Positions 22,705 through 60,562 are shown, numbered from the stretch's first letter. The stretch is DNA of 64,000 nucleotides from Octopus vulgaris (GCA_951406725.2 OX597832.1:27032001-27096000), one strand, 5' to 3'. Numbers and translations are program-made. The notes: generated by a model not told the origin, from the letters alone.

Positions 22705-23036
22705 CAATTGCAGTGTGGAAGGTGTTTATAAGCCATTTAAGAAACACACAAAAGCCGTTCGATTCACTTCAACATTTAAGTTTAATTTGTCAAAATATTT
22801 TCGTCGCTAAAATCCGCGACCTGTTCACTGACAAAAATCAGCATGGATTTTTGTCAGTGAACAGGTCACGGATTTTAGCGACGAAAATATTTTGACAAAT
22901 TAAACTTAAATGTTGAAGTGAATCGAACGGCTTTTGTGTGTTTCTTAAATGGCTTATAAACACCTTCCACACTGCAATTGCTTTCGTTTCAGCACACGAT
23001 CTCAGATCAAATCACTTGCTATGCGAGTACATCTCC
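22705..23036 (+). mobile_element. Penelope-like insertion, family C: 135-bp inverted repeat + 56-nt tail
   Basis: Arms 22705-22839 and 22846-22980 (1 mismatch, 6-nt loop); 12-bp TSD AGATAATGCATA at 22693-22704 and 23037-23048; contains a hammerhead-like motif. Confidence 0.8.
22850..22899 (+). ncRNA. Minimal type-I hammerhead ribozyme motif, G3-C8 core variant (mirror copy on - at 22786-22835)
   Basis: TTTGTCA-GTGAACA-G-GTC(A/G)C-GGATTTTA-GCGAC-GAAA-ATAT-TT-TGACAAA: 7-bp stem I, 5-bp stem II (perfect in the minus copy), palindromic helix III. Confidence 0.7.
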
Positions 23037-23464
23037 AGATAATGCATAATTAATTCAAAACTATGAATAAATAAGAAATCTGAATGCTAAAAGGTTAAGG
23101 AAGAATATGGGGGGGGGGTCTCATTCAAAAGCTATAATAATGCAAAGAAGTGCATTGTGGCCAGCAGTGTATAACAGCATTGGATATAGCTTGACCATTA
23201 TAGTAATATACATATATGTGTGTATATGGGTGTGTAGTGTGCCAGAGAGAGGAATGCATAGGTATTGTCATGACTACACTCATGGAGTGGTTGGCATTAG
23301 GAAGGGCATCCAGCTGTAGAAACACTGCCAGATCAGACTAGAGTCTGGTGCAGCCTCCTGGATTCCCAGACTCCGGTCGAACCATCCAACCCATGCTAGC
23401 ATGGAAAACGGACGTTAAACAATGACGATGATGGTGATGATGATGATGATGTGGTGTGTGTGTG

Positions 23465-23660
23465 TATGGATGAAGACAGCTTTCATAAGGAAGCGCTGAT
23501 CACAGAATGTGGATGGAACCTGTGGAAGAGGAAGACATGGGATAAAATGGTGAATAAAGGACTTGAGAGATGTTGAGGTTCACAGCAGAGGAGATGACAA
23601 AGGACAGAAATGATGATTGATGGTTTGCTCCGCCTGAAAGGACTCGTCTGTCTAAGTAAA
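23465..23660 (+). mobile_element. Degenerate RTE ORF 3' end
   Basis: Similar to the MDEDS...GRGRPRKTW...LTEEMT segment of the 25677-25871 ORF. Confidence 0.6.
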
Positions 23661-25066
23661 ATTGATGCCTCCTGGAAGACATGTCATGTTATGCCTATCT
23701 GCATCCATACAATCTGTCCCTGACAAATCTCTCCCCCACCACAACTTTCTCTATTTGTGTTCACTTGCTCTATACCCCTTCCTTCCATCTCCCACTCTTA
23801 CCTACCCTCACCCCTATCCAATCGTCTGCACCACTTCATTGATATACAAATCCCTGTAACTCAAGGTTACACCTCAATGCCTCACCTTCATCATCTTCCC
23901 TTTCAAACTGGGTCAGCCATGTGTCTCCTCTACATCAAGACCTATTTTACTCCTTCTACCATACCCGAACCTCTCATTACCTGGTACAAATCCACCTCCC
24001 CCAATACAACTCCCCTTTCCCTCAGCTGAATAAGGGGTCTTGTCTTGTAAGTGTTGTGGTCACCTCACTGGTGCTGGTGCAACATAAAAAGCACCCAGTT
24101 CACTCTGTAAAGTGTGGAAAGCATTAGGAAGGGCGTCCAGCTGTAGAAACCAGGCCTGACAGTGGTGCATGGTGCAGGCTTCTGACTCGCTACTCCTCTC
24201 AAACCATATAATCTATACCAGTGGATGTTAAATGATGACGATGACGACGACAATATGTAACAGATTGCATATTATCCTTGGAAACAGAAAATGAAACTAA
24301 CCGTCATATTGAGGCGGTTTCAACATATATTAAATGGTTTTATTAATTTACTCTTTGTGTCAAGTTCTTATTTGCTGTGTTTGTATATACAATTAGATTC
24401 AATTATTCAATGGTTAAGAAACTCGTTTTGCAACCACGTGGTTTCTACTCTGGCCTTAATTAAGCTGATCAATACTTTGTGAGTAAATTTAGTCATACTT
24501 TATTTAAATACTTTAAAGAAAGAAATAAAACCGATTTCAGAGATTAACTGAAAGTACATGACTTGTATATTACAAGCATATGATGGCATGACGGATATAG
24601 TAGAAAAAAACCCCCCAAAAAACAAGCTTTTATTCAATTTCTTAAGCAAAGACAATAAAGAAAAAAGAATTTAAGTCAAAAATATATGACATGGCCACCA
24701 TGGATATTAAATATTTCTAATGCTGATGGCGAAGATGAATGTTCCAGCCAAAGCTACCGAGAAACTCTGCCACAGTCTTGGGGTTCTCTTGTTGAGCAAC
24801 ACACAAATTATGAAGGCATTCTTGTAGCGACACTTTTTTTTTTCCTCTGATATTTTTTCAGTGGCTTTTCTTCGTGTGACTTTTACGGATTCTCTTTTCC
24901 CACCACCAGACCTTGAGAAAACAATTTTACCATAAGAAAGGAGAAAGTACATTTAATATCAATCTGTGAGTCCCAGAATTTATATGAAAGATTTCATCTG
25001 AGAAGATTGACTCTGATTCGAAAATTATTAATAACACTCAACCCGTGGAAAACACTAAGACCTGCC

Positions 25067-25870
25067 TCATCATCATCATCATCATCATTTAGCGTCCGTT
25101 TTCCATGCTAGCATGGGTTGGACGGTTCTACTGGGGTCTGTGAAGCCAGAAGGCTTCATCAGGCCCAGTCAAATCTGGCAGTGTTTCTACGGCTGGATGC
25201 CCTTCCTAACGCCAACCACTCCGTGAGTGTAGTGGGTGCTTTTACGTGCCACCCGCACTGGTGCCAGACAGAGCTGGCAAACGGCCACGAACGGATGGTG
25301 CTTTTTATGTGCCACCGGCACGAGGGCCAGGCGAGGCTGGCAACGGACACGAAACGGGGCGGTGCTGGCAACGGTCGTGAAACGGAAAGTTCTCTTACAT
25401 GCCACCGGCACTGGTAACACATCTGCAATTTCCATTGATCGATTTCCATTGATCGATTTCGATTCTGATCCTCACTTGCCTCAATGGGTCTTCACAAGCA
25501 GAGTTTCGACATGCCACCGGCACTGGTAGCACATCCGCAATTTCCATTGATCGATTTCGATTCTGATCCTCACTTGCCTCAACACGTCTTCACAAGTAGA
25601 GTTTTGTGTCCCAAGAAGGGAAGGTATGCATACGTAGGCTGGCTCCATCCCATGTAGAAGGCCACGGGTTGTGGACTCACTTGTCCTGCCGGGTCTTCTC
25701 GCGCACAGCACACTTCCAGAGGTCTCGGTCTCTAGTCATTTCCTCAGTGAGACCTAAAGTTCGAAGGTCGTGCTTCACCACCTCGTCCCAGGTTTTCCTG
25801 GGTCTGCCTCTTCCACAGGTTCCCTCAACCGCTAGGGTGTGGCACTTTTTCACACAACTATCTTCATCCA
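25067..25870 (-). mobile_element. RTE LINE 3' fragment with ~120-bp internal tandem duplication in the UTR
   Basis: ORF end GRGRPRKTWDEVVKHDL...REKTRQDK*; duplicated segment about 25398-25590; (CAT)n tail. Confidence 0.9.
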
Positions 25871-27039
25871 AGAAAATTGTATACAGTGCTCAGGTGAACC
25901 ACAAATGCTCAGGTGTGGCATAATGTTTTGCCTTTTATGATTTTAGAAATTATGGTGTAGGAGTGGCTGTGTGGTAAGTAGCTTGCTTACCAACCACATG
26001 GTTCCAGGTTCAGTCCCACTGTGTGGCACCTTGGGCAAGTGTCTTCTATTATAGCCTCGGGCCGACCAAAGCCTTGTGAGTGGATTTGGTAGACGGAAAC
26101 TGAAAGAAGCCCGTCATATATATATGTCTATACATATATAGATGTATGTGTGTGTATGTATTTGTCCCTCCAACATCGCTTGACAACCGATGCTGGTGTG
26201 TTTACGTCCCCGTAACTTAGCGGTTGAGCAAAAGAGACCGATAGAATAAGTACTAGGCTTCCAAAGAATAAGTCCTGGGGTCGATTTGCTCGACTAAAGG
26301 CAGTGCTCCAGCATGGCCACAGTCAAATGACTGAAACAAGTAAAAGAGTAAAGAGTAGTCTAACCCTTTAGCACTTAAACAAGACAGAACCAACCTAAAT
26401 ATTTTACCTGTTTTATGTTCAAACTGGCTAGATTCAGCCTCTCCCACACACCTTACAATGCCATTCTAAAAATTAGCAGTTACCTCATTAAAATCTCGAA
26501 GCTACGAGATAATATGTGATTAATTTTTTAAAATGTGAATAAATAAGCATTAAATTTGATAAATTAATCTGAATGCTAAAGGCTTAAGGAAGATCTGGCT
26601 GCTATTTCTAGCTGATCAAGAGACCACATAAAGGTTCATCATGTGTCTGCGCTGTTACCATAGAGACACACAGTTGCAACTTCCTGTATGTTTGCAATGG
26701 AAGCTTCCAATTGGTTAAAATTACATAACTTTAAATGCTTGTAACTTCTTGCAAAAAAAAAGAGAAATGAAAAATGAATATGATTTTCGTCATCAGCATG
26801 CAAAATTACACCAAAACTACATTTTCTCCAAAATTTCAAATATTTGAAATGGTTTGAAAAAAATTTAACAAGATCTGAATTTGGCTGTTGTTTCTAGCAG
26901 ATTGAGCAACTGAGTAAAAACACCCACATTAACTCCCCAATGGACAGTAGCTTGGGTAGGAATGGTGGTGGTAGTGAGACAGAGGTGGGGGTGAGAGTGG
27001 TGTTGGTGGTTGCATTAGATGGCAGCTGGTAATAACATT

Positions 27040-27140
27040 GATGGTGGTGATGGTGATACTGATGGTGTCCTTGGTTAGTAAGCAGTTAGTAGTATGGATG
27101 GTGATGGTGGTGATGATGGTGATGGTAGTGGTGGCAGAGA

Positions 27141-27174
<34 letters not shown>

Positions 27175-27500
27175 GATGGTAGTGGTGGCAGAGATGATGA
27201 TGATGATGATGGTGGTGGTGATGGTAGTGGTAGTGACGGTAGTGGTGGTGGTGGTGGTGGTGGTGGTGATGATGGTGATGATAGTGGTGGCAGAGATGAT
27301 GATGATGATGATGATGATGGTGGTGATGGTGGTGGTGGTGATGATGGTGATGGTGGTAGTGGTGGCAGAGATGATGAGGATGATGATGGTGGTGGTGGTG
27401 ATGGTAGTGGTGGCAGAGATGATGATGATGATGGTGGTGATGGTAGTGGTGACAGGTATGACGATAATGATGATGATCATCATGATCATCATCATCATTG
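27040..27500. repeat. Higher-order (GAT)n/(GGT)n trinucleotide minisatellite
   Basis: Unit GGTAGTGGTGGCAGAGATGATG... x5; similar tracts at 1075-1325, 36200-36450, 38155-38400. Confidence 0.95.
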
Positions 27501-27764
27501 GGACATGATTGAATGATAGGGGGGGGAGGCAGACAGTGAGATAGATGTAAGGACACCTGGAGGTTGATGTAGCAGGGGGTAGGATAGGGGTGAGCAGACT
27601 AGACCAGAGGGAATATAGAGAGGCTGAGGGTGGAGTGGCGAGACTGGCTGTCTTTTACTTTCCTGCCATTGTCAAGGTGCCACTATGGAGTTTCTTTGTG
27701 CTGTAATTAAGACATAGAAAACAACCCCCCACCATTGCAATGGCAGAGTGTTGTTATAAGTATA

Positions 27765-29651: not shown

Positions 29652-29669
29652 TTAAACATTCTTGACAAA

Positions 29670-30225: not shown

Positions 30226-30292
30226 TCATGTGTGTGCAAATATATACATACATATATATATAATCATCTGTGTGTGTGTATATATATATATT

Positions 30293-32105
30293 CTTTTATT
30301 TGTTCCAGTCATTTTACAGCGGCTATGCTGGAGCACTGCCTTTAGTCGAGCAAATCGACCCCAGGACATTGTCTGTAAGCCCAGTACTTATTCTATCGGT
30401 CTCTGTTGCCGAACCACTAAGTTACGGGAACATAAACAACCAGCATCTGTTGTCAAGCGATGTTGGGGGGGGGCAAACACTGGCACACAAATATATACAT
30501 ATGTATTTATATATATATATATATATATATATCATCATCATCATCATCATCATCATCGTTTAACGTCCGCTTTCCGCACTAGCACAGGTTGGACGGTTTG
30601 ACCGGGTCTGGGAAGCCAGGGCCGCACCAGGCTCCAGTCTGAATCTGGCAGAGTTTCTACGGCTGGATGCCCTTCCTAACGCCAACCACTCCGTGAGTGG
30701 ATTAGGTGCTTTTACGTGCCACCTGCACAGGGGCCGGAGGGTCCGGCATCGTCACGATCGGTTCGAGCATTTTAACGTGTCAGCGGCACGGGGGCAACGA
30801 GGTCCGGGGTACTTTGGGGATCGGGGTACTTTGGGGATCCAGGGTACTTTGTGGATCCGGGGTACTTAGAATGGGTAGGGGGTATGTGGAATTGCTGCAG
30901 AAAGCAGCCCGGGTCTTTGTAGTCACAGCATATCTCCAGAGATCTCGGTCCTTCGCCATTGCCTCAGTGAGGCCCAATGCTCTGAGGTCATGCTTGACCA
31001 CCTCATCCCATGTCTTCCTGGGTCTACCTCTCCCCCTGATACCTTCAACTGTTTGGGAGTGGCACTTCTTCACACATCTCTCTTCATCCATCCGCAGCAC
31101 ATGACCATACCATCGCAAGCGTCGCTCTTGCACACCACATCTGATGCTTCTTATATCCAGCATTTCTCTCAGGATACTTACACTCTGTTTTGCGTGCACA
31201 CTGACACTACACATCCAGCGGATCATGCTAGCTTCATTTCTTTCAAGTCTACGCATGTCTTCTGCAGTCACAGCCCATGTTTCATTACCGTGAAGCATGG
31301 CAGTTCGCACACATGCATCATACAATCTACCTTTTGCTCTGAGGGAGAGACCTTTTGTTGCCAGTAGGGGTAGGAGCTTTCTGAACTTTGCCCAGGCTAT
31401 TCGTATTCTAGTGGTGATACTCTCTGTGCATCCACCTCCGCTACTAACTTGGTCTCCCAGGTAGCGGAAACTATCAACTACTTCTAGTTTCTCTCCCTGG
31501 AGTGTGATGGAATCTGTTTTCTGAGTGTCTGTTGTGTCTATTGTCCCTGTGCATCTGCCGCACATGAAAGCTATCTTATCTGTTAATTTCCCTTTAATGT
31601 TGCTGCACCTCTTATGTGTCCATAACTTACATTGGGTGCATCTTATGGAGTTTCTACCTGTACCTTTCCTACAGGTTGAGCAGGGCCACCTACCCGAGGG
31701 GATGTGTGCTGAGTACCTCTTGCTGCTTACTAATACTTTGGTCTTTGCTACATTTATTCTAAGGCCCTTTGATTCCAACCCTTGCTTCCACACCCGAAAT
31801 TTCTCTTCTAGTTCCGGTAGTGATTCTGCTATGAGGATTATTTGAGGGAATATTAATCCAAACTTACAGGGAAAAAAATTCAATTTAGAAATACTAAATC
31901 AAATTTCATACAATATAATATATATATATATATCTATACATACGACGGGCTTCTTTCAGTTTCTGTCTACCGAATCCACTCACAAGGCTTTAGTAGGCCC
32001 GAGGCTATAGAAGAAGACACTTGCTCAAGGTGCCATGCAGTGGCACTGAACCCAGATCCATGTGGTTGGTAAGCAAGCTACTTACCATGCAGTCACTCTT
32101 GCATC
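30293..32105 (-). mobile_element. SINE family 1 copy split by the RTE insertion (3' half ~30293-30530, 5' half ~31920-32105)
   Basis: The two halves are collinear with intact copies and the break lies in the central (TA)n. Confidence 0.8.
30531..31836 (-). mobile_element. 5'-truncated RTE-clade LINE (RT C-terminal part, 3' UTR, (GAT)n tail)
   Basis: Open frame with GLRINVAKTK, EVVDSFRYLG, RRLRWYGHVLRM, GRGRPRKTW; (CAT)n tail on +; splits a SINE. Confidence 0.95.
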
Positions 32106-32109
32106 TATC

Positions 32110-32193
32110 AAAAAATATGGAATGCTTCACGAATTTGCATATCATCCTTGCGCAGAGGCCATGCTAATCTTCTCTGTGTCATTCCAATTTTAG
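32110..32193 (-). pseudogene. U6 snRNA pseudogene (5' stem-loop missing or degenerate)
   Basis: Minus strand reads CTAAAATTGGAATGACACAGAGAAGATTAGCATGGCCTCTGCGCAAGGATGATATGCAAATTCGTGAAGCATTCCATATTTTTT; about 6 substitutions from the recalled U6 consensus, several CpG-type; ACAGAGA box intact. Confidence 0.93.
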
Positions 32194-32929
32194 AATAATT
32201 TTATACAAGATGCCAAGCAATGGAATCAAACAGTTACCAATCGAATAATTCCAATCACTTGGTCATGCTTACAAAACACAAGCACACACAGACATCACAG
32301 TTGGTTGATCAACAGAACTGACAGTGCTGGGTTCATTCATTCATTTTTTTTTTGCTGACATATGTTAGGCGGGCCACTAAGTGTGGCCCTATGAGTCATA
32401 ACCTGTCTATCAATCCATTTATGAAATATCAACATTTACACACTTGACCTACAAGATTTTTCTCAAACATACCTTCTTCCCAAGCCTACCTTTCTCTACT
32501 TAACAGCAAGTAATTTCTACTACCAACCCATGGCCTATTTTAACCTGATTCTAATCTTCCCTTTATTAAAGATCTCTGTAATAACACACTTATTTAACCT
32601 CTGCATACGAACATGTAGCTTTCGTGTCCTCGCATCTCATTACATTCAAACTTTGTCTCAAGTTAAACATTGCAGATTCAACAACTTAAAACGATTTACT
32701 TGTCAATTCCTGTACAACCTCTTACAGTGACAGTCCATGTTCCACTGGATGTGGTGTATGTCTAAGATGTGTGATAATGCAGCGTATGATAGTGAAACAT
32801 GGATAATGAATGTAGAGTTATTTCTATAGATTTTCCACAGCAATTAGATCCAATACTGAACGTTACAGTTCATATAGGAATATGTTTATGTAAACAATGT
32901 GATAAAAGATAGAAAAAATAGGAACAGAT

Positions 32930-32970: not shown

Positions 32971-34920
32971 CACATTCACTCCAATAACCACCCATGAACA
33001 CACTGCTTAAATAGTTACCAAATACAGAAGTGTAACACAATTGGATATATCAGTTTTACATAATAAACACATGTCTGGCAATTAGTATGTAGATATTAAT
33101 AGCGAAAATAGAAGACTAAAGAGGATGGGTAAGATGTGTGGCGACTTAGATAGTGAAATGTGGACAAGGTCATTTCAAAATTCGTCCTCAATTAAACATC
33201 ATACGTCCAACTGATTATAATTAATGTATTACTATGAATTCTACATCCAGGACTTGAATTGTATTTCAAACGCTTGCCAGCTGGCAGTATTTCCAAACAC
33301 ACAACAGACAACTTGATATTCTGTCTCCTCAAATGAAACACTATAAACTGCTTCTGCTATTTGAAAATTAGCAATTAATTCATTAATTAGATTCACAAGT
33401 TTTATGTCTCACAGAAAGCAATGAACTTATGCAGAACATTTTGATATATTGTAATATCGAATATAGCAACAAGAAACAGAGATGCAGGAACCTGTGAAGG
33501 TTTGTGCCGGCCAAAAAGTACAGGAATTTTGTGACGAGGAATAAGTTAGTTTGTATCAAGGAAGAGGAGAAATCTTATGGTAGGGGCCGAATTCTTCATT
33601 AAGGAGAACAAATAATTGGTACCAATTACAGAGCCATGTATCTTCACTGAAGAGGAGAGAGAAAGAATTGGTCAGTGTTGCTGTTATTGTATGAAGTATA
33701 GTGGTAGGTTAGTGAAATTACCTATGTTGCTAGTGCTAAGTGACTGACTATCTTTCAAAGATATAATGCACAATAACCTATCTTGCTAGTGTAAAATGAC
33801 TGACTAATTAATTATATAGTGGCGATATATGATAACCTATCTTACTTGTGTTAAGTCATCATCATCATCATCATCATCATCATTTAATGTCCGTTTTCTG
33901 TGCTAGCACGGGTTGGACGGTTCAACCGGGGTCTGGGAAGCCAGGGGGCTGCACCAGGCTCCAGTCTGATCTGGCAGTGTTTCTACAGCTGGATGCCCTT
34001 CCTAACGCCAACCACTCCATGAGTGTAGTGGGTGCTTTTTACGTGCCAGGGGAGGCTGGCAGCAGCCACGATCGGTTGGTGCTCTTTACGTGCCACCAGC
34101 ACAGAAGCCAGTCAAGGTGATGCTGGCATCGGCCACGTTCGGATGGTGCTTTTTACATGCCACCGGCACAGGTATCACAACTACAATTTCCATTTGATAT
34201 TCATTTGTTAAGGGATTGATCAAATATCAGGTGTGGAGATAGAATAACATTAAAATGTCCTGGGTAAGACTCTAAACTGCATCTGGTCATGGGGCCTTGG
34301 TACAACAGTTCCAGGGTTTTGGGGAGGGTGGAACCACCTCTTGGCCATTATTGTCCCCAAGTCTACTCTGACCCAGAATAGTAGCATCTGTTAGGGCACC
34401 GGCTATGGGTTAAGTAGGGTAGCATGCGTACCACCCGCTTCACACCCAGGCTACATCTGCTGCCACAATCAGTGGTGACTTGGTCAGTGAATCCTTTGTG
34501 GTGGCCAGCAACTGATGGCATGAGCTCTTGTGAATCACATTGTCCCAAATGTGACCAGGGACCATGCATGAACTTGTATTCACACTGAAACTCTAAACAT
34601 GAACTCTACACCTCAACAACGAATGACGACTACTGCTATGGCACCTGTGGCATCCATTATGATTGCTGTCTCGGTGGAGCATTTGTCAAATTTACAAGCT
34701 GGATATTTAAGCTGCAGGCAGAAAGAAGCATTACTTTGCCTGCTGGAGTATTAGAGTCAACCATTTGGATGTGGTCAGCCTCCATGAGGGACGTGATGAA
34801 CTCATTGGTCAAAGCTGGCTCAACTTACCACAAGTGAATGCCACCACAAGTACAAGTATAAAAATAACTGAAACAATTTATAAATTCATTATTTACATTT
34901 GACGGATATTTGTTCTTATC

Positions 34921-35199
34921 TTCTGTTGTGTCTAGGGAGAGTCATTTTCTTTTTGTGCCTTATAATATAACAAACTCACAGGTAAAATTTCCACCGTTTT
35001 CTTATTTTTATTTTCCTAAAATTTTCGTTGCGTCTTGCAACCTTAGGATAATAAAAATAAGAAAAAAGTGGAAATTTTACCGGTGAGTGTGTTTGATTAT
35101 AAGGCACAAAAAGAAAATGATTCTCCACAGACACAACAGAATATGCTTCAACACACAAACTCATATAAAGAATCTTGCAAACCAAATCCAAAAACGAAA
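34921..35199 (+). mobile_element. Penelope-like family B copy 1 (inverted arm + tail) nested in family A
   Basis: Arms about 34921-35020 and 35044-35141; degenerate TSD TGTTCTTATC/TGTCCTCATC at 34911-34920 and 35200-35209. Confidence 0.75.
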
Positions 35200-35222
35200 T
35201 GTCCTCATCTTGTTTGTTGTTA

Positions 35223-35266
35223 ACACAACGTTTCGGCTGATATACCCTCCAGCCTTCATCAGGTGT
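35223..35266 (-). ncRNA. Minimal type-I hammerhead ribozyme motif, canonical C3-G8 core
   Basis: ACAC-CTGATGA-A-GGCTG-GAGGGTATAT-CAGCC-GAAA-CG-TT-GTGT; 4-bp stem I, 5-bp stem II, palindromic AACGTT helix III, GUU cleavage triplet. Confidence 0.85.
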
Positions 35267-38200
35267 CTTGGGGAAATTTCAAACCTGGGTTCTCATTCCT
35301 AAGGCATATATCCATCAAATGTAAACAATGTAAATAATGTACATAATTCCTCATCTCTTAAATATAGAACTGAATTTATAAATTTCCATTTATTAAAGCT
35401 GGAATACTATAGATGCTGTGTTAGTATAGTTGACGACATAGAAGATATCAGGTTCATGACCTGTCACTGTCTCAAATCAAAGCTTAAATTGTCCAATATC
35501 ATCAATCACTGATCTCGTTTTGCTGTAACGAAGACTCCTCACAGCAACAAGCATTGAGCTTCTAGAAATAGCAGCCAAATCTGCCTCAAATTACTGAAAA
35601 GACATGCCGGATAATGTTGCCTTCGATATACTTACATCTAGGGGCCTTTGTTTACTCTGGGTTGACCTGGGATTAAACCATAACAAAAAAAAACCCTAGA
35701 GAGAAGGGGAGAGGGAAAGAGAAACAGGGGAGATTCTTTCTTAGCAGTGAAGTAGTAGTAGTTCTGTTGTATTGCTGAAGACTGGGTTTTTGGATGCTGC
35801 TGCTAATGATTTGAATTCTGCCAAAAATTCAGTGTCGCCTTTCAACAATAGCGAGTCAAAAGTAAGAACTAGTTCTTACATGCTAGACCATGCGTATGAG
35901 AGGTGTCAATTGTCTTAACTGCCGTAGTGGTAGCAGTGGTAGGGGAAGCAGCAGCAGCAGGAGCAGCGGTAGCAGCAGCAGCTGTAGTAAATAGTGAAAA
36001 TGTGTGGCGATCGTTATCGTTGATTGAGTTGGAGATCCCGTTTCCTCGTTCTATCTCGGGAAGAGAAGCCGTGTAAAAGCAGCACCCACCACCCACCACC
36101 ACCTACCACCGCCATCGACCCATCGCCTCTCCATTCTCCCCCACCCCACACGACACACAGCATCAATTAAGTAAGACATTTGACACGAACATTTTTCGTT
36201 GCCACCACCACCACCACGTTCATCACCATCACCGCCACTACCATTACTGCCGCCGCCGCCACCACCACTACCAATACTTCTTCCACTACTTCCACCATCT
36301 CCACCATCATCACTATCACCGTCACCACCACCACCACCACCACCACCACCATCACCGCCACTACCATCACTGCCGCGCCACCAATACTTCTTCCACTACT
36401 TCCACCATCTCCACCATCATCACTATCACCGTCACCACCACCACCACTGCCACTACATTGCTGTCTCTGATCCTCCTCACAAAACTCCCCGAAATCTGCA
36501 ATCATTAATGATGTTGCTCTCTTCAGCAGCTGTTAGAGAGAAGAGCAAGAGAGAGAGAGAGAGAGAGAAAGGAGAGAGAGAAAAGGGGAGAGTGTGGAGG
36601 GGGAGAAAGAGAGAGAGAAGAAAATCTGTATGTGTAAAACTTATAAAATATAATCTTTTCAAAAATCTATTATTGCATGTGCGCATGTGAATGTGTGCAC
36701 ATGCATGAACACACGCACGCACGTGCATGCACACACACACACACAAATGAACGTACACATACATATAAAGGTTGATAAATTCAACATAAACAAAGTCAGT
36801 ACTCTGAGCTTTTCACTGAGGAATACTCTCAGAAATTCAATTTGAATCATCATCATTCAATGTTTGTTCTCCATGCTGGCATGGTTGGACGGTTTCTATG
36901 GCAGGATGCTTTTCATAATGTCAACCATTTTACAGGGTGTACTGAGTGCTTTCTTCATGGCACTAACACAGGCTTTAAAGTCTCTACTGCCAAACTGCTA
37001 GGTTATGGGGACATAAACAAACCAACACCATTTTGTCAAGCAGTGGTGGGGGACAAACACAAAAAACACACACATAGATATATTTATATATATATACAAC
37101 AGGCTTCATTCGGTTTCCATCTATCAAATCCACGCACAAAGATTTGGTAGGCCAGGGGCTATAGTAGAAGACACGTGCCCAAGGTGCCACGCAGTGGGAC
37201 TGAACCCAGAACCAATAGGGAAGCTTACGTCTTACCACCAAGCCATGTCTGTGCCTAAATTTGTGTGTGTATAAATATGCCCAGAGTTGTCACCATACTT
37301 AAAGATTTGTTGTTACACTCCCCACTAAATACACCCCGTTATTCAACAAACTGATTTTAATTCAAAAGTTGTCTCCCTTCCTTTCCACGACAACAATTAT
37401 CATTAACACAAACGATGTTTATTTCTATTACAGGTGCAAATTTAATTGTTTCAACAGATATTTTTTACTTCACAACATGAAACATAGTCACTCCCACCCC
37501 CTCCACCTTAAGTATACGAAAACAAACTCAAGGAGATGAGTCAGGCAAAGCTGAATATAAATAACAATGCAACGGAGCAATTTGTTAATGATGTGCTTCA
37601 CAGTTGGAGATCTGCCCATGATACAACACTACTGTCAATGAAAGAGCCAGTATGTTACCACCTGATCTACTAGAAATAGCAGCCAAACCCTGATGGTGGT
37701 AATAGATCTCTGCTGTTCAACAATGAGGATTCAGTTGTTTGATCTCATCTGAATTACCTGTTCTTTGAGTTAATGTGTAAATGGATGAGTATTCCACAGA
37801 CAATTGTTATTGCGAGCATCAATGCCCATCTTTTCCCCCTATTCGATGTGTGTAGCTATGCAGACCCCTCAGCAAGAATCTGCTCTGCTCCCCTTTCTCA
37901 TTGTAATCCCCACTTCCCTTAGCACAAATGCCGACCTCCCTTCTCCCTACCCATGGGTTCATAGTCTTGTGAATTGCATGGTGACCTCAATAGTGCTGGT
38001 GCCACACGAAAATCATTCTAGTCCTCTTAGTAAAGTGGTTGGCATTAGGAAGGGCATCCAGCCATAAAAACCATGTGGGTACAGACATTGGAGCTCAAGG
38101 ACACATGAATCCTGTCAAGCCATCCAACCCATACCAGCATGGAAGACCATGGCTGATGGTGATGGGTGATAATGATAAGTGATGATGATGATGATGGTGA

Positions 38201-46732: not shown

Positions 46733-46780
<48 letters not shown>

Positions 46781-47268: not shown

Positions 47269-47299
<31 letters not shown>

Positions 47300-47578: not shown

Positions 47579-47625
<47 letters not shown>

Positions 47626-48279
47626 TATATATATACATACATACATACATACATAAGAAAATGCGGGATGGTCATGGCTTGGGAGAGGTTGATCATAGGT
47701 CAGATCGATCAAACTGAAACATACCTGGGGTTAAACAATAACAACAACATCATTAATTAATTAAATATTCAACTCAATTACAACCAGAAAAAAGTTTCAA
47801 AGTTTCACTCATCAGAACGGATCATCAACATACATTGCACAATATATACACACACACACATCTATATATATATAGATATATATATATATGTGTATAGTTT
47901 CTACGTACCAAGTTTAAAGTCGGAGGTGATAGTAAAATATCCTGTGTGTAAGAATAGAAGACGACAGAAGCTCCATAACCAAACTTTTTTATCGAAGGGA
48001 AGAGAAACTCTGGCGAAACTGAAATTCACACGCACACGCACACACACACACACATACATACATCTATGTGTATGGACACATACATACGTATACACACATA
48101 TACACGTACACTTTGATAAACGCGAACACACACACACACACACGTAACAATACACACGCATACACACACACACACAAATACGGTTTATTATGTAGGCGAC
48201 GGCGGAGACGATAATGATTGGAGGATTATGTATGGTAGAACAAAAGTGACGAAGAGCTTTTTCGCCGAGACTTTTTTTT

Positions 48280-48482
48280 TGGTTTTTGGATTTGGTTTGC
48301 AAGATTCTTTATATGAGTTCGTGTGTTGAAGCATATTCTGTTGTGTCTGGGGAGTGTCATTTTCTTTTTTTTTTTTTTTTTGCCTTATAATCTAACACAC
48401 TCACCGGTAAAATTTACTCTTTTCTTTTCTTATTTTTATTTTTCTAAAATTTTCGTTGCGTCTTGCAACCTTTTCAATAGTT
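48280..48482 (-). mobile_element. Penelope-like family B copy 2
   Basis: Near-identical to the other family B copies; includes the complete hammerhead-like motif. Confidence 0.75.
48444..48480 (-). ncRNA. Minimal hammerhead ribozyme motif, U3-A8 core variant
   Basis: CTA-TTGAAAA-G-GTTGC-AAGAC-GCAAC-GAAA-AT-TT-TAG; second copy at 60462-60498 (-) whose substitutions leave G-U wobbles. Confidence 0.62.
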
Positions 48483-48933: not shown

Positions 48934-49098
48934 TTTCGTTTTTGGATTTGGTTTGCAAGATTCTTTATATGAGTTCGTGTGTTGAAGCATATTCTGTTGT
49001 AGGAAAATAAAAATAAGAAAAAAGTGGAAATTTTACCGGTGAGTGTGTTACATTATAAGGGCACAAAAAGAAAATGACTCTCCCCAGACACAACAGAA
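48934..49098 (-). mobile_element. Penelope-like family B copy 3 with internal inversion
   Basis: Exact 11-bp TSD GTCACGGTATA at 48923-48933 and 49099-49109; inverted segment ends at ...GACACAACAGAA. Confidence 0.8.
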
Positions 49099-52408: not shown

Positions 52409-52441
<33 letters not shown>

Positions 52442-53170: not shown

Positions 53171-56100
53171 GCCCACTCCATCCCCTCCCACCAAAAACAA
53201 TAATCTTATTGTTCTTGTGATCTTGCTAGCCAACCACATGGTTCCGGGTTCAGTCCCACTATGTGGCATCTTGGGCACGTGTCTTCTGCTATAGCCCCGG
53301 GCCGACCAAAGCCTTGTGAGTGGATTTGGTAGACGGAAACTGAAAGAATCCTGTATATGTGTATATATGTATGTGTGTGGGTATATGTTTGTGTGTCTGT
53401 GTTTGTCCCCCTAGCATCGCTTGACAACCGTTGCTGGTGTGTTTACGTCACTTAGCGGTTCAGCAAAAGAGACCGATAGAATAAGTACTGGGCTTACAAA
53501 GAACAAGTCCCAGGGTCGATTTGCTTGACTAAAGGCGGTGCTCCAGCATGGCCGCAGTCAAATGACTGAAACAAGTAAAAGAGTAATGCTTCCATACCTC
53601 TGGTACTTGGAGCCCCATGATCCATAAAAGTTAAGTTTAGGTGTTGCAAGGGGCACTGCACCCTTTCCCAACATTTGTAGCCTTTTACCCATCAATGTGG
53701 GGACTCCACACTCATTGCAAGTCATATTACACGGTTGGCAAATGCATGAACATCACAACATCTCCCCACTTCCTGTAAGATGTATCAACATTGGACATTG
53801 TTTAGAATTGAGTTTCCTGTCCAGTGACAGTATTCTAGGGTGGATGGGTGTGATGTAGGTGAGACAGCCTCTCCCTCTCTCTCTCTTCCAAATTAATCAC
53901 CCCCTCTGGGTTGCTGTGGTGGTGATGGTTGGTGACTCATTGCTATGGCTCAATAAATTCTTCATTGTCTGTTTGGTTGGTGCCTGTCTTTGTTTCTGGG
54001 GCCTTTTATACTTTTGTTCTGGTCACACTTCATAGGGGACAGTAGACCAACTGAACCCTAGGGAAATGGTTATGATGTGTATTTGGCCAAAAAAAAAAAA
54101 TAATAATAATAATACAAATAATAATAAATGCTGGAATATATATTATGCCATAATATTCCACTGTATGGGTGGTAGTCTGTCATGGTGTGTTGGTGTTGTA
54201 GTAGTAATGTCAGTGGCATGTTAGTGATATTGGGTTTTAAAAGTATCTGTAGTTGTGATGGGGTTAGTCTGTTATAGTGATGGGATTGTTGTGTTGGGGG
54301 TGGAGTATATTTTGGGAATCGGACTAAATAACACCACCTGACCCCCAACCTCTCACCTTCCATCTTCTGCTTAATTAATACACATTATTGTAGATGGGTG
54401 TGTAGTGCATGCAAATATATGTGTGTATGTTGGGATGTGAATTTGCTGTAAAAAGCCTGTTTGTCTGGAGTAGTCATTGATGAACTTTGAACTATTGCAT
54501 TACAATATGTCTTTGTTTTACATCTGTCTGTCTGTTTGTCTAGTTAGGCTGCTCTGTGCCACATAACCGGGTGTTGTTTAATCCAAAGTCACTTCTTAGT
54601 CAAGCTGGCCGACTGTTGTACACTCACCTATTGTTACAGTCTTGAACCCAGGTGAGCACCCTGTGTCAATCTGTTCCGTGCTACACAGCCAGTTGCTGTT
54701 TAGCCCCAGGTCAGCTCCCAGACAGGCTGACTCTATGTCATACATATTATTATTATTAAGGCGGCGAGCTGGCAGAATCATTAGCGCGCCGGACGAAATG
54801 CTTAGCGGTATTTCGTCAGCCACTACGTTCTGAGTTCAAATTCCGCCGAGGTCAACTTTGCCTTTCATCCTTTTGGGGTCGATTAAATAAGTACCAGTTA
54901 CGCACTGGGGTCGATATAATCGACTTAATCTGTTTGTCTGTCCTTGTTTGTCCTCTCTGTGTTTAACCCCTTGTGGGTAGTAAAGAAATAGAAATAGGTA
55001 TTTCACCCATTGCTGTGTTCTGAGTTCAAATTCCACTGAGGTCAACTTTACATTTCCTCTTTCCGGGGTCGATAAAATAAGTACCAATTGAATACTAGGG
55101 TTGATGTAATTGACTCAGCCCCTTCTCTCAAAATCGTTGCCCTTGTGGAAAAATTTGAAACTATTATCATTATTATTATTGAGTGAGAGAGTAGTGCATG
55201 CCATCAAAGTGACAATTGGGTAAAATATACAAAGCCCAGACACATGCATCACAACAATATGTGTGCGACATGGTGATTTCATACCAAGATAAACAGCGCA
55301 TGACCTTGCAGGTGGGGCCCAGTTCGAATTTTTTTCAGGTTAGAATTTCCATCCAGCTCAAAAGGTCCCTGAATAAGGGTTGTTTAACCCTTTCATTACC
55401 AACCTGGTTGAAACCGGCTCTGGTTCTGAGTACAAATGTCTTGTTTTCATAAGTTTTGAATTAAAATCTTCCACCAAACCTTATTCACAATTAATGTTCC
55501 TAAAACTAGCTGAATGATAACCAAATTATTTTATAAATTCTTTGTTATGTGTAAAGTAATTGAAAGAAACACAGAGCATCTCAAAATAAATACAGTAATG
55601 AAAGGGGTAACGATGTTGAACAAGACACCCATGTTTCCAGAAGTGAATTATCCAAACCCTAAAGAATTCCTCTCAACACATGGCTATGATGCTCCCCCAC
55701 TACTTCTGCTCGTGATCAGAGATGCACATATCGTCAGCCACTAAGGGACATGCTCAACTGGTTAAGGTCAAACAACTGACAAGCAAATCTGTGGTACTGA
55801 GCAGAATATTTGCTGAATATTTATCATTGTTATTAAAAAAGATGGCGAGCTGCCTGTTTTCCATGCTGGCATGGGTTGGACAGTTTGACTGAGGTCTGGA
55901 GAGCCAGCAGCTGCACCAGGCACCAATCTGATCTGTCATTGGTTCTACAGCTGGATGCTCTTCCTGACACCAACCACTCCAAGAGTGTAGTGGGTGCTTT
56001 TTACATGCCATCACTGACCAGTGTCCGAATAACTAGACTCATCTAGTTATTCTACAGACGAGACTTTTATCAGATGACGTACACATTCAGTTTGAAGATG

Positions 56101-56272
56101 GTGATGTGCTGTGTGGGTTGGGAGGAATTTAGCTGTTCTTTCTAGCAGGACAAGGATCCACATGCAGGTATCCTAGTTGGTGGTGACTGTAGTGGAAATA
56201 TAAGTGGCTGTAGTAGTAGTAGTGTTGTTATTGACAATGTTTCAATTTAAACAACTGGCAATGATCTTATTG

Positions 56273-56309
<37 letters not shown>

Positions 56310-59300
56310 GCCTACACTTGGACACATCTTTAATATGTTAGAGGTCAGTGTTAAAATGAATAAAAGGTCAGTCAGTCTTGTCTGTCATCAATAAAAAAAA
56401 CAAAACAATGACACCTTTCTCTTGGTGAATGGTAAATTCTACAGATGAGACTTTTTATTCACCAGAACTCTTTACGTGTGTGTGTGAGGGAGAGAGAAAG
56501 TTTTGTCTGTCTTTGTGTGTGTGTGTGTGTGATTTAGTTGTGTCCCTGTATGTTCTGAGTTTGAATCTTGTGTGATTAAATTTTTACCTGCCATCAACTA
56601 CCTGTTACCTGTACAACCACAACAATAATTAAGAGAGAGAGAGAGAGACAGACAGAAGTAAATTAAGCTGAAAATGATGAATCTGTTTGGACAACCACCA
56701 CCCACATAGTTGATTGACCTGCTAGAAATAATAGCCATATATCCTCATATTATTGCTTGTTATCTTAATCTTTTAACATTCGGATTACTCTGTCCAATGT
56801 AATGCCTTTTTTTTTATTTGTGTTGTTTTGAATTAATCCTGGATAATCCCATAGCTTCAAGATTTCTATGTGATTGTTTATTTTTCGGATGACATTGTTG
56901 GGTAGGTGTAAGAGGCTGGAGCTGGCTGGTTTGAACATAACCCAAGTGGATGAGATATGAGTGTTTTAAAGCTAAAAGGTTAAAAGAAAAAAACCTGAAG
57001 ACAATATTTGATTATATAATCCAAGGACGTAAAAGAAAATGACAGGATGGTCACAGCTGGACCGCTTCTGATCATAGGACTGCTGGATCGAGGTAACCTA
57101 TGCCTATGCAACAACAATAACGATGGAACGAGGAGGAAGAATTTCTCACCTTTCCAACTCCTTCTGTTTCTTCCTTTCCAGTTTTGCTGCTAACATTCGG
57201 GTCAACATGGTTTCGGTCTTCGGCTCTAGTCACCGACACAACAGGTTCGATCTTCGTACACAGGAAAAAATGTGACCTTTTGAGACGTGGGTCGAGATGC
57301 TTTTCACAGTGTCAACCTTTGCTGGTTCAAATCCTACTGTGTGTGTGTGTTTTTTTTTTTTTTTTTTTTTGTCACTCCCTCCAGTTGACCTGTGTTGGTG
57401 ACCGATCCTGCATGTACCGGTTATATTGTCATATTAGGACAGCAGCCAGTCACTTCTAAGAATTTACTTATTATTATTTGGCCATTTAAAAAAAAAAACT
57501 GTTGCTCATTGCAGCAGTGTTGTTGTTTTAGAACCTGTAGCTGTTAAAGATCCATTGACCGGTTTCCAAATCACCAGGCTGTACTTCAAGAATGGTCTGT
57601 GTGTTTGTTGCTAGAGTTGTTGTTAGTGTGACTGTTGTGAAGAAACACAAGCTGGGTCACCTTACTTGCAGCTGCTGTCTATCTGGCCATCACTGACCGA
57701 TGTCCGAATAACTAGACTTTGTTTTTTTTTCTCTTTTTTTTAAGAGGATACTGTGTATGTTTGTGGTTGTTATGGCTATTGTTGTTGTGGCTTCATTCCA
57801 AAGGTAAAGATCCAATGACCGCTGTCTGAATAACCAGACTACATTCAGAGAATGATGTCTGTCTGTCTGTTATTGTAGCCTTATTAACGAAACGAAGGTT
57901 GGGTCCTCTTATTCATAACTCTTGACCATCCAACATCCCCAAACACAGGATATTATTGTTGTTTATCGTTATTTGTCAAACTACTTAGCATTTTTTTATC
58001 AAGATTTCCTTCAAACCAATCCTGGATTCTGTGTTCCTGTTCCTGTTGTTGTTCTTGTTTAGCCCCAGGTTAGCCTTGATAGGTTAGTAAAACACTTTCC
58101 AGCTATAACTAACCTATCTTGTTAGTAGGAATAGGATCCCTCGGAATACATTATCCAATGTGTCTGTTCTTCGCCATACTCATTCCCCCCCCATTATTGG
58201 ATGGGTTCCAAAAGAAATTTAGCTGCTGTTTCTTGCAAGCTGACCAATGTTCCCGTAATTATGCAGCTGTAAGTCAGTCCTGATTGGACAGGGTTATTGG
58301 TCAAAGACATTCCAAATGTGACCATTTGGTCTTTTGTACATCAACAACCCTATTGTCCAGTCTCCATTTTTAAGTCGGTTGTGTTTGATTTGAGGGAGAT
58401 TTGGCTGTTATTTCCAGCAACTTAAGCCACCACTGATTAAAATCTTGTTATAACTTTGAAAGTGATTATGGTGTGTGTGTGTGTGTGTATGAGCACACGT
58501 GTGTGTGTGTATTGTTGTGGTATGTATATCCTTTGTATGTTTTTGGTTGTTTCATTGTTGTTTTTGTTTGATTGTCCTTGTTGTTGCTCCCCCCCCCACT
58601 TTAATTTGTTTAATGAAACTCTTTTTCTCTCTCTCTCTCTCTCACTTTGGGTGTGTTTATTAACATCTGTAAGTGTTTCTTCTTTCTACACGTGTGTGTG
58701 TGTATGTGTGTGTAATGTTGTATGTGTGTATCTGAGTGTCTTTCTGTCTGTATGTGTATTGCTTTATGAGTGTGTGTGTGAGTGTATTAATGTGTATGCA
58801 GATCTTTTGTCTTGTTTCAGTCATTAGACTGCAGCCATGCTGGAGCACCTTAAAAAATTTTAGTTGAATTAATCCCAAGACTTATTGTTTTGTGAGTGGA
58901 TGTGGTTGTCGGAAACTGAATGAAGTCCATCGTATCATCATCATCATTGTTTAACGTCCGCTTTCCATGCTAGCATGGGTTGGGCGATTTTGACTGAGGA
59001 CTGGCGAACCAGATGGTTGCACCAGGCTCCAGCCTTGATCTGGCAGAGTTTCTACAGCTGGATGCTGTTCCTAGCGCCAACCACTCCGAGAGTGTAGTGG
59101 GTGCCTTTTACGTGCCACCGGCACGGAGGCCAGTCAGGTGGTACTGGCAATGACCTCGCTCAAATCTTTTTACACATGCCACCGGCACAGGTGCCAGTAA
59201 GGCGACATCGGTATCGATCATGCTCAAATGGTGCCCTCTTACATGCCACGGCACGGGGGCCAGTCAGGCAGTACTAGCAATGACCTCACTCGAATCTTTT

Positions 59301-59517
59301 TACAGCTCGATATATATATATATGTATGTATTTGTGTCTGTGTTTGTCCCCACCACCATCGCTTGACAACTCAACTTAGTGGTTCAGCAAAAGAGACTGA
59401 TAGAATAAGTACTAGGCTTACAAAAGAATGTCCTGGGGTTGGTTTGTTCGACTAAAGGTCATGCTCCAGCATGGCCACAGTCAAATGACTGAAACAAGTA
59501 TAACATTAAAAGAATAT

Positions 59518-59900
59518 ATGTGGCTGTGTGGCAAGATGCTTGCTTACTAACCACATGGTCACCAGTTCAAGTCCACTGTGTATCACCTTGGGCAAGTGTC
59601 TTGGGCTTACCAAAACCTTGTGAGTGGATTTGCTAGATGGAAACTGAAAGAAGCTTGTTGCATGTATGTATAGTGTGTGTGTGTGTGTCACTGAGTCTGT
59701 GTTTGTCTCCAACCACCGCTTGACAACCAGTGTTGGTGTGTTTATGTCCCTGTGACTTAGCAGTTCAGCAAAAGAGGCCTATAGAATAAGTACCAGGCTT
59801 TACCAAAAAACAAAAAAAAAGTAGAGGTCAATTCATTCAGCTGAAATTCTTCAAGGCATTGCCCCAACATGGCCACAGTCTATTAACTGAAACAAGTAAA
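59518..59900 (+). mobile_element. SINE family 1 copy just upstream of PSMG3 exon 2
   Basis: Matches 14174-14587. Confidence 0.88.
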
Positions 59901-59996
59901 ATATCCACCACACCCTCCCATACACAGACATAAAGAGAACTATTAATTATTATTATTACCATTAATTATTAATTATTATTCTGACCGTTCTTGCAG

Positions 59997-60098
59997 GCAT
60001 CAGCTGAAATCAATGGCAACCAGACAGAAGTGGTGTGCAGCTCCTACGAGGATTACATCTTCCTGATAGTCACACAATACATGAAGATTGGAACATTG
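59997..60098 (+). CDS. PSMG3: PSMG3 coding exon 2 (ASAEINGNQTEVVCSSYEDYIFLIVTQYMKIGTL)
   Basis: ttcttgcag| acceptor, |gtaagt donor, 102 nt; matches PAC3 motif T-x-VVC...VTQ-x-x-K-x-GTL. Confidence 0.95.
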
Positions 60099-60308
60099 GT
60101 AAGTATCTGTTTCTCATGTCATCAGCACCCCTATTTTGAAGGGCTCCGTTATGTCCACACTGTTCTTCCCCAACACCCACGGGAGGCTAATTGCACTATT
60201 GGTGCACTTCATTAAATGTAAATAGGGTTAATGTCTTTAGACAACTCTGTATTGCACCTAAAAGGAAGTGTCTGTAGTTGTGTGTTCTGTATTATTATTA
60301 TTATTACT

Positions 60309-60562
60309 TTTCGTTTCTGGATTTGGTTTGCAAGATTCCTTATGTGAGTTCGTGTGTTGAAACATATTCTGTTGTGTCTGGGGAGAGTCATTTTCTTTTT
60401 GTGCCTTATAATGTAACACACTCACCGGTAAAATTTCCACTTATTTCTTATTTTTATTTTCCTAAAATTTTCATTGCGTCTTGCAACCTTTTCAATAATC
60501 TTGACTCTATCCATTCCTTATAAGGCACAAAAAAAAAATGACTCTCCCCAGACACAACAGAA
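60309..60562 (-). mobile_element. Penelope-like family B copy 4 in PSMG3 intron 2
   Basis: Tail, body and hammerhead motif, then an inverted segment ending ...GACACAACAGAA; sits in a (TTA)n tract. Confidence 0.78.

What the first reader, a model, noticed from the sequence alone, without database searches (positions are those of the whole stretch)
22705..60562. Three Penelope-like families carry hammerhead motifs with three different 3:8 core base pairs
Seen: family A (35223-35266,-) ACAC-CTGATGA-A-stemII-GAAA-CG-TT-GTGT; family B (48444-48480,-; 60462-60498,-) CTA-TTGAAAA-G-stemII-GAAA-AT-TT-TAG; family C (22850-22899,+) TTTGTCA-GTGAACA-G-stemII-GAAA-ATAT-TT-TGACAAA. All keep U4 G5 A6 A9 and GAAA, add one purine after A9, have a 5-bp stem II and an essentially loopless palindromic helix III. 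Within the conserved core only positions 3 and 8 change, always as a Watson-Crick pair (C-G, U-A, G-C). Established: C3-G8 is a tertiary pair in the hammerhead core, and PLEs carry minimal hammerheads that cleave as dimers. Inference: this is natural covariation that CUGANGA-pattern searches would miss; the distinct helix III palindromes could make dimerisation family-specific. Novelty in this taxon is not verified.
Basis: partly seen in the sequence, partly recalled or inferred. Interest (0 to 1): 0.85.

Follow-up and report, generated by a model that had tools for sequence, protein, structure and literature searches.

The report
Retrotransposon hammerheads swap core base pair
Three repeat families in this octopus DNA carry the sequence of a small self-cutting RNA (a hammerhead) whose core base pair reads C-G, U-A or G-C, and the G-C form, which I did not find reported in nature, sits in thousands of copies of a jumping gene, likely because the RNA still has to cut itself.

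Summary
The motifs are minimal type I hammerheads with 3:8 pairs C:G (A), U:A (B) and G:C (C). B and C are the 3' ends of sister Penelope-like retrotransposons (RT, Cys linker, C-terminal GIY-YIG). C has an intact 1025-aa ORF about 1 kb upstream of its G3:C8 motif. A third sister family, D, keeps C:G, so one clade uses three Watson-Crick pairs. Genome-wide, one strand, pattern versus reversed control: C:G 10308/219, G:C 4470/201, U:A 3431/780. A:U and most unpaired combinations show no excess. A is a tRNA-headed, SINE-like element with no ORF found. U3:A8 in Penelope hammerheads, the extra purine and the palindromic helix III were published in 2014, and engineered G3:C8 is known to be partly active. 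A natural G3:C8 core was not found in my searches, but the paper most likely to hold it was unavailable. Against strict covariation: family D has C9, one outside copy has A3/G8, and 5% of old C copies read G3/G8. Cleavage is untested. Family-specific dimerisation is only a prediction from complementarity.

The parts
22786..22835 (-). Family C hammerhead, perfect copy: helix I 7 bp, core with G3 and C8, extra G, stem II 5 bp, 6-nt palindromic helix III, U17
22850..22899 (+). Family C hammerhead, second copy: G3 at 22857, C8 at 22862, predicted cut after U17 at 22892; one private mismatch in stem II (22868)
22705..23036 (.). Whole family C insertion: 5'-inverted arm 22705-22839(-) plus forward pLTR fragment 22845-23036(+), flanked by a 12-bp direct repeat (22693-22704 and 23037-23048), probably a target-site duplication
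   Evidence: read directly; (blast)
22949..23036 (+). Family C 3' tail, reading from an ATG as a short peptide like the start of family D's ORF; inferred to be the first codons of the element's own ORF, as in the Poseidon element PAc
   Evidence: PMC11167929; inference
35222..35267 (-). Family A hammerhead: C3 at 35262, G8 at 35257, extra A, stem II 5-6 bp, 4-nt palindromic helix III, U17 at 35227
35200..35372 (-). Family A copy, 5'-truncated with an inverted piece of its own 3' end (about 35319-35372); the tRNA-like head seen in other copies is absent here
34918..35202 (.).
48444..48480 (-). Family B hammerhead: U3 at 48477, A8 at 48472, helix I 3 bp, 4-nt palindromic helix III, U17 at 48447; element spans about 48277-48480
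60462..60498 (-). Family B hammerhead: U3 at 60495, A8 at 60490, stem II closed by G-U; element about 60301-60500 with a 5'-inverted piece at 60518-60563; ATG of the ORF-start tail at 60391-60389
48934..49098 (.). Fourth family B fragment, an inverted pair without the hammerhead core

Best explanation
These are minimal hammerhead motifs at the 3' ends of Penelope-like retrotransposons, and their core 3:8 base pair has been swapped between sister families (C:G in D, U:A in B, G:C in C), likely because selection keeps a pair that the ribozyme needs in order to cut. Shown: the motifs, their family-wide state, their place downstream of the ORF (about 1 kb in C, about 0.6 kb in B and D) and 55-95 nt before the next ORF start, and the common descent of B, C and D. 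From established knowledge: the 3:8 pair positions the 2'-OH of residue 8, the general acid; any Watson-Crick pair keeps that hydroxyl, and engineered U:A and G:C swaps keep some activity. Inferred: a tandem transcript brings two pLTR motifs together, the palindromic helix III and helix I form between them, probably with help from the element's own protein, and the RNA is cut after U17, which trims multimeric transcripts. Inferred and speculative: A, B, C and D all have U17, which cannot form a Watson-Crick pair with C3, U3 or G3 but would with A3, and this may be why A3:U8 is the one pair with no family in this genome. Family A is probably a non-coding, tRNA-headed element that borrows a canonical Penelope-type tail.
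For: Window scan: 4 hits, against 0 in 30 shuffles. Family consensus 42 of 45, 62 of 64 and 69 of 71 copies, and 81 of 100 in an older C subfamily. One-strand genome counts against the reversed pattern: C:G 10308/219, G:C 4470/201, U:A 3431/780; A:U 330/635, purine-purine 1705/1787, pyrimidine-pyrimidine 1001/1605, G:U plus A:C 672/557 (minus). Intact 1025-aa ORF with RT motifs and a GIY-YIG hit (E 1.8e-5) upstream of the G3:C8 motif; 4 of 6 fetched EN-bearing copies carry the motif. Tree of thumb plus EN: (C,(D,B)) at 91/99, D+B at 100/98. Of 18 metagenome loci, 6 showed a hammerhead at the pLTR position: 3 C:G, 2 U:A on separate branches, 1 unpaired. No other letter at 3% or more at positions 3 or 8 in four laid runs, while loop II varies. 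Engineered C3G/G8C partly restores cleavage in a Penelope-like hammerhead (PMC11167929); G3-C8 activity depends on N17 (PMC3884650).
Against: No cleavage data here. In the PAc element the hammerhead was not needed for insertion in vitro, cut only with protein, and no RNA-seq ends mapped to its cut site. The youngest family, D (at least 150 matches at 99-100% over 110 aa), has C at the conserved position 9 and a non-palindromic helix III. One outside copy (L259) has A3/G8. G3/G8 is 29 of the first 100 non-C8 family C sites and 5 of 100 in the old subfamily, more than the reciprocal G-to-C change at position 3. C:A plus U:G is 2.5-fold over control (2028/801, minus); decay of the large C:G and U:A families can explain that, but I did not show it. 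B's helix I is 3 bp. Monomer folding energies are not unusual (z -0.5 to -1.9). The independent switches are few: two in this genome and two outside.
Confidence: 0.75

Rival explanations
1. The fold is kept for a role other than cutting, for example as a protein-binding or translation-control element just upstream of the ORF start. The 3:8 pair would then be kept for shape, and catalysis would be residual.
For: PAc insertion does not need cleavage in vitro; minimal Penelope hammerheads cut weakly in vitro; family D spreads with C9; the motif lies 55-95 nt before the ORF start in B, C and D.
Against: U4, G5, A6, G12-A14, A15.1-U16.1 and the NUH site are all kept across families whose proteins are only 45-54% identical. 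The 3:8 pair is known as a feature of the catalytically arranged core (recalled; consistent).
Confidence: 0.18
2. The motifs cut as protein-assisted monomers rather than as strand-swapped dimers, so helix III palindromes and family specificity matter little.
For: The PAc hammerhead cut only when the ORF protein was added; family D's helix III can close as 2 bp with a 2-nt loop and is not a palindrome; most genomic copies are solo or inverted, not tandem.
Against: A, B and C have perfect palindromes with no loop, which a single strand cannot close; dimers and trimers of a Schistosoma minimal motif cut while the monomer did not.
Confidence: 0.2
3. The three pairs are founder accidents: decayed master copies happened to amplify, and the pairing is chance.
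For: Copies within a family share one ancestor, so thousands of copies count as one event; unpaired single copies exist.
Against: Each swap needs two changes at positions that are otherwise fixed; 4 of 5 non-C:G lineages seen are Watson-Crick (B, C, L245, L246 against L259); G3:C8 persisted through at least two C subfamilies that differ in loop II and flanks; no high-copy unpaired family appeared in the first 100 listed matches.
Confidence: 0.06

Closest known systems
Minimal type I hammerheads of Penelope-like elements (Cervera and de la Pena 2014, PMC4209133)
   Same: pLTR position, loopless palindromic helix III, extra nucleotide between 9 and 10.1, G10.1-C11.1, short helix I; a U3-A8 variant with the same seven-base core as family B is shown for Schistosoma mansoni
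   Different: None of the 56 representatives in its Fig. S3, as far as the extracted text shows them, has G3; family C's G3:C8 core and three different pairs within one clade of sister families are not described there
PAc hammerhead of the anole Poseidon element (Frangieh et al. 2024, PMC11167929)
   Same: Hammerhead at the pLTR-ORF junction; element ends inside the first part of the ORF (tail); the engineered C3G/G8C double mutant partly restores cleavage
   Different: There G3:C8 is a laboratory mutant; here it is the natural state of a family with intact ORFs. In PAc the ORF starts inside stem II; here it starts 55-95 nt downstream of the motif
Natural core variants in Perreault et al. 2011 (PMC3088659)
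   Same: First natural C3-G8 to U3-A8 covariation
   Different: The section read names only U3-A8; these were not Penelope motifs
Neptune and Nematis clades of EN+ Penelope-like elements (as defined in Craig et al. 2021, PMC8557442)
   Same: [quoted passage not shown]
   Different: Clade placement rests on motifs only; no reference protein was available for a tree
Hammerhead-bearing SINE-like repeats (Sm-alpha of Schistosoma) and non-LTR retrozymes
   Same: Family A has a promoter-like tRNA-type head, no ORF and a type I hammerhead
   Different: A has the minimal Penelope-type motif, an (AAT)n spacer and 5' inversions, and is dispersed rather than in tandem arrays in the loci seen

Membership tests
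Minimal type I hammerhead of Penelope-like elements | U4 G5 A6, A9 and G12 A13 A14 conserved | tested here: met
   95-100% per column in A, B and C for U4-A6 and A9; G12 89% in A and B, at a CpG site. Related family D fails at A9
Minimal type I hammerhead of Penelope-like elements | Literal C3...G8 core (CUGANGA) | tested here: not met
   Met by A only; B is U3/A8 and C is G3/C8. U3-A8 is already accepted as a variant of the family
Minimal type I hammerhead of Penelope-like elements | Watson-Crick pair between positions 3 and 8 | tested here: met
Minimal type I hammerhead of Penelope-like elements | A15.1-U16.1, NUH cut site, palindromic helix III without loop | tested here: met
   4-, 4- and 6-nt palindromes, all with U17
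Minimal type I hammerhead of Penelope-like elements | Extra nucleotide after A9 and G10.1-C11.1 closing stem II | tested here: met
   one window copy has G-U through CpG decay
Minimal type I hammerhead of Penelope-like elements | Self-cleavage as a dimer | not testable with these tools
   needs an in vitro assay; the laid runs were contigs and cannot show RNA ends
EN+ Penelope-like element, Neptune/Nematis type (families B, C) | One ORF with RT followed by C-terminal GIY-YIG | tested here: met
   C: intact 1025-aa frame, GIY-YIG at 915-1005; RT motifs seen directly and matched to an RVT_1-positive Penelope-type protein at E 3e-14; Pfam RVT_1 itself did not hit. B: only broken pieces seen
EN+ Penelope-like element, Neptune/Nematis type (families B, C) | CX2-5CxxC linker upstream of GIY-YIG | tested here: met
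   read directly in the translations of B, C and D
EN+ Penelope-like element, Neptune/Nematis type (families B, C) | pLTR organisation: 5' truncation, inverted 5' copy, tail, (TA)n targets | tested here: met
   inverted copy within 450 nt upstream in 18 of 30 B and 20 of 30 C loci; (TA)n after the end in 16 of 30 C but only 3 of 30 B loci
EN+ Penelope-like element, Neptune/Nematis type (families B, C) | Phylogenetic placement with named Neptune references | not tested
Naiad (N-terminal EN) | GIY-YIG N-terminal to RT | tested here: not met
   EN is C-terminal in B, C and D; none of six motif words from A, B and C occurred in the supplement holding the Naiad consensus sequences (line breaks could hide a match)
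Autonomous Penelope-like element (family A) | RT/GIY-YIG ORF upstream of the hammerhead | tested here: not met
   no such ORF in 30 loci with 1.5-kb flanks; a search with a Poseidon-type EN gave only weak matches that were not followed
tRNA-derived SINE (family A) | tRNA-like head with A and B boxes, no ORF | tested here: inconclusive
   one head type in 14 of 30 loci, a second in 3 of 30, an (AAY)n-type run in 25 of 30; box-like motifs read by eye (consensus recalled); ARAGORN called no tRNA in 18 loci

The most novel reading that the evidence does not exclude
Family C is the first natural hammerhead lineage with a G3:C8 core, carried by about 8,500 copies of a recently active retrotransposon. 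Within one clade the tertiary pair has moved through three of the four Watson-Crick states, A3:U8 being barred by U17. This is evolutionary proof that Penelope hammerheads are selected to cut in vivo, and it means CUGANGA-based censuses miss about 40% of the motifs in this genome and will have scored some retroelement families as ribozyme-free when they are not.
Probability: 0.45. Interest if true: 0.65.

Novelty: new variant of a known kind. Interest (0 to 1): 0.5.

Why it matters
Whether Penelope hammerheads are needed at all is open: they cut weakly in vitro, one was dispensable for insertion in vitro, and it has been suggested that they merely ride along. Compensatory double changes at a pair that belongs to the catalytic arrangement are the kind of evidence that bears on this, and sister families B, C and D give ready-made natural constructs for the test. 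In practice, about 40% of pattern-matching motifs in this genome have a non-CUGA core (one-strand counts minus controls), so descriptors should allow any pair at 3:8. The U:A half of the story is already in print, which limits the surprise.

Tried and rejected
(1) Naiad hypothesis. One family C locus (L007) has an RT fragment just upstream, which raised the idea that B and C are Naiads, a clade reported to lack canonical hammerheads. Rejected: the fragment belongs to a separate RT-then-EN family of 838-862 aa with its own canonical CUGA motif (Hydra-like by recall), and walking upstream from B and C led to C-terminal EN ORFs. (2) An A3:U8 family: none; 330 matches against 635 in the control, and the one repeated string among the first 100 has no stem II. 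(3) A second G3:C8 family (L262): a single copy in the genome, so weak evidence. (4) G3/G8 as a surviving intermediate between C:G and G:C: the 12 fetched copies mostly belong to an older C subfamily, but that subfamily is itself 81 of 100 G:C with 5 of 100 G/G, no more than G:U (5) or U:C (5); inconclusive. (5) Parent of family A: not found. (6) Rfam listed no hammerhead model among the 150 matches shown. (7) Sequencing runs: no RNA holder listed; the four runs laid were contigs, which cannot show expression or cut ends. (8) Viral contigs: no relative. (10) Papers not held: Lunse et al. 2017 on about 150,000 Penelope-linked hammerheads (count recalled), Przybilski and Hammann 2007, a 2012 review looked up by a recalled id and Jimenez et al. 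2011. (11) Monomer folding z-scores are unremarkable, as expected for short motifs. (12) Earlier scan notes: nothing on 3:8 variants.
Full report
1. Observation. I scanned both strands of the window with a type I hammerhead descriptor that left positions 3 and 8 free. It returned four hits, all with a palindromic helix III and a stem II of at least 5 bp: family A at 35267-35222, family B at 48480-48444 and 60498-60462, and family C at 22835-22786, all on the minus strand. None of 30 shuffles gave such a hit. The C copy that was cited (22850-22899, plus strand) is the other arm of an inverted pair and has one private mismatch in stem II. Two more B fragments lie in the window without a full core. 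Rfam listed no hammerhead among the 150 matches shown of 295.

2. The pairs are family states. The genome (G000, 2.8 Gb) is an octopus: the closest database protein is named Octopus vulgaris and a stretch of it occurs at 100% identity in G000. I fetched the 30 best loci per family. Counting every copy with an intact 5' part in all fetched G000 loci and the window gave C:G in 42 of 45 A copies, U:A in 62 of 64 B copies (5 of 69 lacked the 5' part) and G:C in 69 of 71 C copies (4 of 75 lacked it). That sample is biased towards the window's sequence. An unbiased listing of an older C subfamily gave G:C in 81 of the first 100 of 469 sites. In four public runs under four organism codes, no other letter reached 3% at G3 (22857) or C8 (22862), while loop II and downstream sites varied.

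3. Genome-wide counts. I ran one generic core pattern with different letters at 3 and 8. Forward-strand matches against the reversed-pattern control were: C:G 10308/219, G:C 4470/201, U:A 3431/780, A:U 330/635, all purine-purine 1705/1787 and all pyrimidine-pyrimidine 1001/1605. By subtraction, G:U plus A:C is 672/557 and C:A plus U:G is 2028/801. I use the forward strand only because reverse-strand counts list some sites more than once; the control is a rough measure of chance. Doubling and subtracting the control gives roughly 20,000 C:G, 8,500 G:C and 5,300 U:A sites. Three Watson-Crick states are strongly enriched and the fourth is absent. The C:A plus U:G excess is what transitions in the large families would give, but I did not show that.

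4. What carries them. Walking upstream, the G3:C8-type motif lay downstream of the family C marker in 28 of 30 loci (26 G:C, one A:U, one C:C) and the B motif in 12 of 30 loci. Beyond a microsatellite-rich 3' UTR both families run into a GIY-YIG domain preceded by a CX2-5CxxC linker. One C copy has an intact 1025-aa frame (L237) with RT motifs, the linker and a Pfam GIY-YIG hit, and the G3:C8 motif about 1 kb downstream; 4 of 6 EN-bearing copies fetched carry the motif. Pfam RVT_1 did not hit this protein; RT identity rests on the motifs and on a match to an RVT_1-positive Penelope-type protein (E 3e-14). For B I saw only broken ORF pieces. A third family, D, is very young (150 listed matches at 99-100%, several with 1311-1312-aa frames, in tandem units of about 4.6 kb). 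It has C3:G8 but C at position 9; older relatives keep A9. A tree of thumb plus EN (31 rows; L258 left out for lack of a match) gives (C,(D,B)) at 91/99 and D+B at 100/98. So one clade uses G:C, C:G and U:A. In B and C the sequence after the motif reads like the first codons of D's ORF, which matches the tail described for the PAc element. 5' inversions occur in 13, 18 and 20 of 30 loci for A, B and C. Family A has no ORF in 30 loci; 14 of 30 have a tRNA-like head and 25 of 30 an (AAY)n-type run before the tail, so it is best read as a SINE-like passenger with a canonical motif.

5. Other organisms. A scan of metagenome contigs gave 18 related loci. Six show a hammerhead at the pLTR position: C:G in L244, L249 and L258, U:A in L245 (with C9, read by eye because the script missed it) and L246 (in both repeats), and an unpaired A3/G8 in L259, a single copy. 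The other 12 show none, several because they end too early. L245 and L246 sit on branches apart from B, so U:A likely arose more than once. No outside locus had G3:C8.

6. Mechanism. Shown: anatomy, family state and descent. From the literature read: the 2'-OH of G8 is the likely general acid (PMC6155905 passages); G8C lowers the rate about 100,000-fold and C3G partly restores it (PMC8495972 passage); the same rescue holds in a Penelope-like hammerhead, which needs the ORF protein to cut and is not needed for insertion in vitro (PMC11167929, parts 1-2 of 4); a minimal Schistosoma motif cut weakly as a dimer and not as a monomer (PMC4209133, parts 1-2 of 4). Inferred: two motifs in a tandem transcript swap strands to form helices I and III and cut after U17, probably with protein help. 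Pair counting shows full helices only for same-family partners in A, B and C; B with C comes closest among mixed pairs. This makes family specificity plausible but does not show it. A published remark that G3-C8 works better without C17 (PMC3884650 passage, data not shown there) suggests why U17 matters: it cannot form a Watson-Crick pair with C3, U3 or G3, but could with A3. That would explain the missing A3:U8 state; it is a hypothesis.

7. Results against this reading. Family D thrives with C9 and a non-palindromic helix III. L259 is unpaired. Among family C sites without C8 (442 sites; a few are relics of D- and B-like families), 29 of the first 100 read G3/G8, while the reciprocal change at position 3 is 10 of the first 100 of 194. 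I tested whether G/G is a surviving intermediate and could not show it. Independent switches number only four. No cleavage or expression data were obtained.

8. Comparison with what is known. U3-A8 was reported as natural covariation in 2011 (PMC3088659, section 8 and passages) and in Penelope-like elements in 2014, with about 1,300 hits in Schistosoma. The supplement of that paper (parts 1-2 of 3) lists 56 representatives, one with the same core as family B and none with G3; its consensus figures came through as garbled text and could hide a variant. The extra nucleotide and the palindrome are described there too. I found no report of a natural G3:C8 core in searches, or in passages of PMC6765202, PMC13725137, PMC10085705 and PMC6155905. 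Of PMC8557442 I read passages and supplement parts 1-2 of 59 and ran one motif search; its core search used the CUGANGA string. Of the 2026 retrozyme preprint I read part 1 of 5; its supplements are closed. Lunse et al. 2017, the largest survey of these motifs, was not held, so the novelty of G3:C8 is unproven. Two earlier scan notes touch side issues, a tRNA-bearing Penelope-type repeat and a twister in a Naiad tail; I did not check them and they are not used as support.

9. Verdict. This is real biology and a new variant of a known kind. The part that may be new is the natural G3:C8 core in a large family with intact ORFs, and three pairs within one clade. The rest is published. Interest 0.5.

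Noticed in passing
L261:972-4904(-) and its repeats: Family D: a very young Neptune-like family with intact 1311-aa ORFs in tandem arrays, whose hammerhead has C at position 9 and a non-palindromic helix III. An unrelated metagenome element (L245) also has C9, so C9 may be a tolerated natural variant or a sign that the ribozyme is dispensable.
   Followed up: partly
L072, L074, L084, L085 (family A loci): Family A is tRNA-like head + (AAT)n + Penelope-type hammerhead tail, with 5' inversions; a second head type shares the same tail in 3 of 30 loci. It is probably the most numerous hammerhead family in the genome (most of the first 100 C:G matches). It may be a SINE moved by a Penelope-like element; its parent was not found.
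   Followed up: partly
L121-L137: A separate RT-then-EN family (Hydra-like by recall) with open frames of up to 862 aa and a canonical CUGA hammerhead with a long palindromic helix III.
   Followed up: partly
window 32111-32217 (-), continuing to about 31926: U6 snRNA-like sequence (Rfam 92 bits) whose 3' end is followed within about 15 bases by a tRNA-type SINE copy; likely a U6 retrocopy or U6-SINE chimera.
   Followed up: no
window 30780-31898 (-): 372-aa open frame resembling the 3' part of an RTE-type LINE ORF (recalled likeness).
   Followed up: no
L264: A diverged B-related copy that combines B's U3:A8 core, a C-like helix I 3' strand and D's helix III, supporting common descent of the three motifs.
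   Followed up: partly
G000 C1:150109323-150127444: A tandem array of about 603-bp units that matched the A3:U8 pattern but has no stem II; not a hammerhead by this test.
   Followed up: no
listing, G000 C1: Further canonical C3:G8 minimal hammerheads with other stem II sequences (one repeated about ten times in the first 100 matches); their elements were not traced.
   Followed up: no
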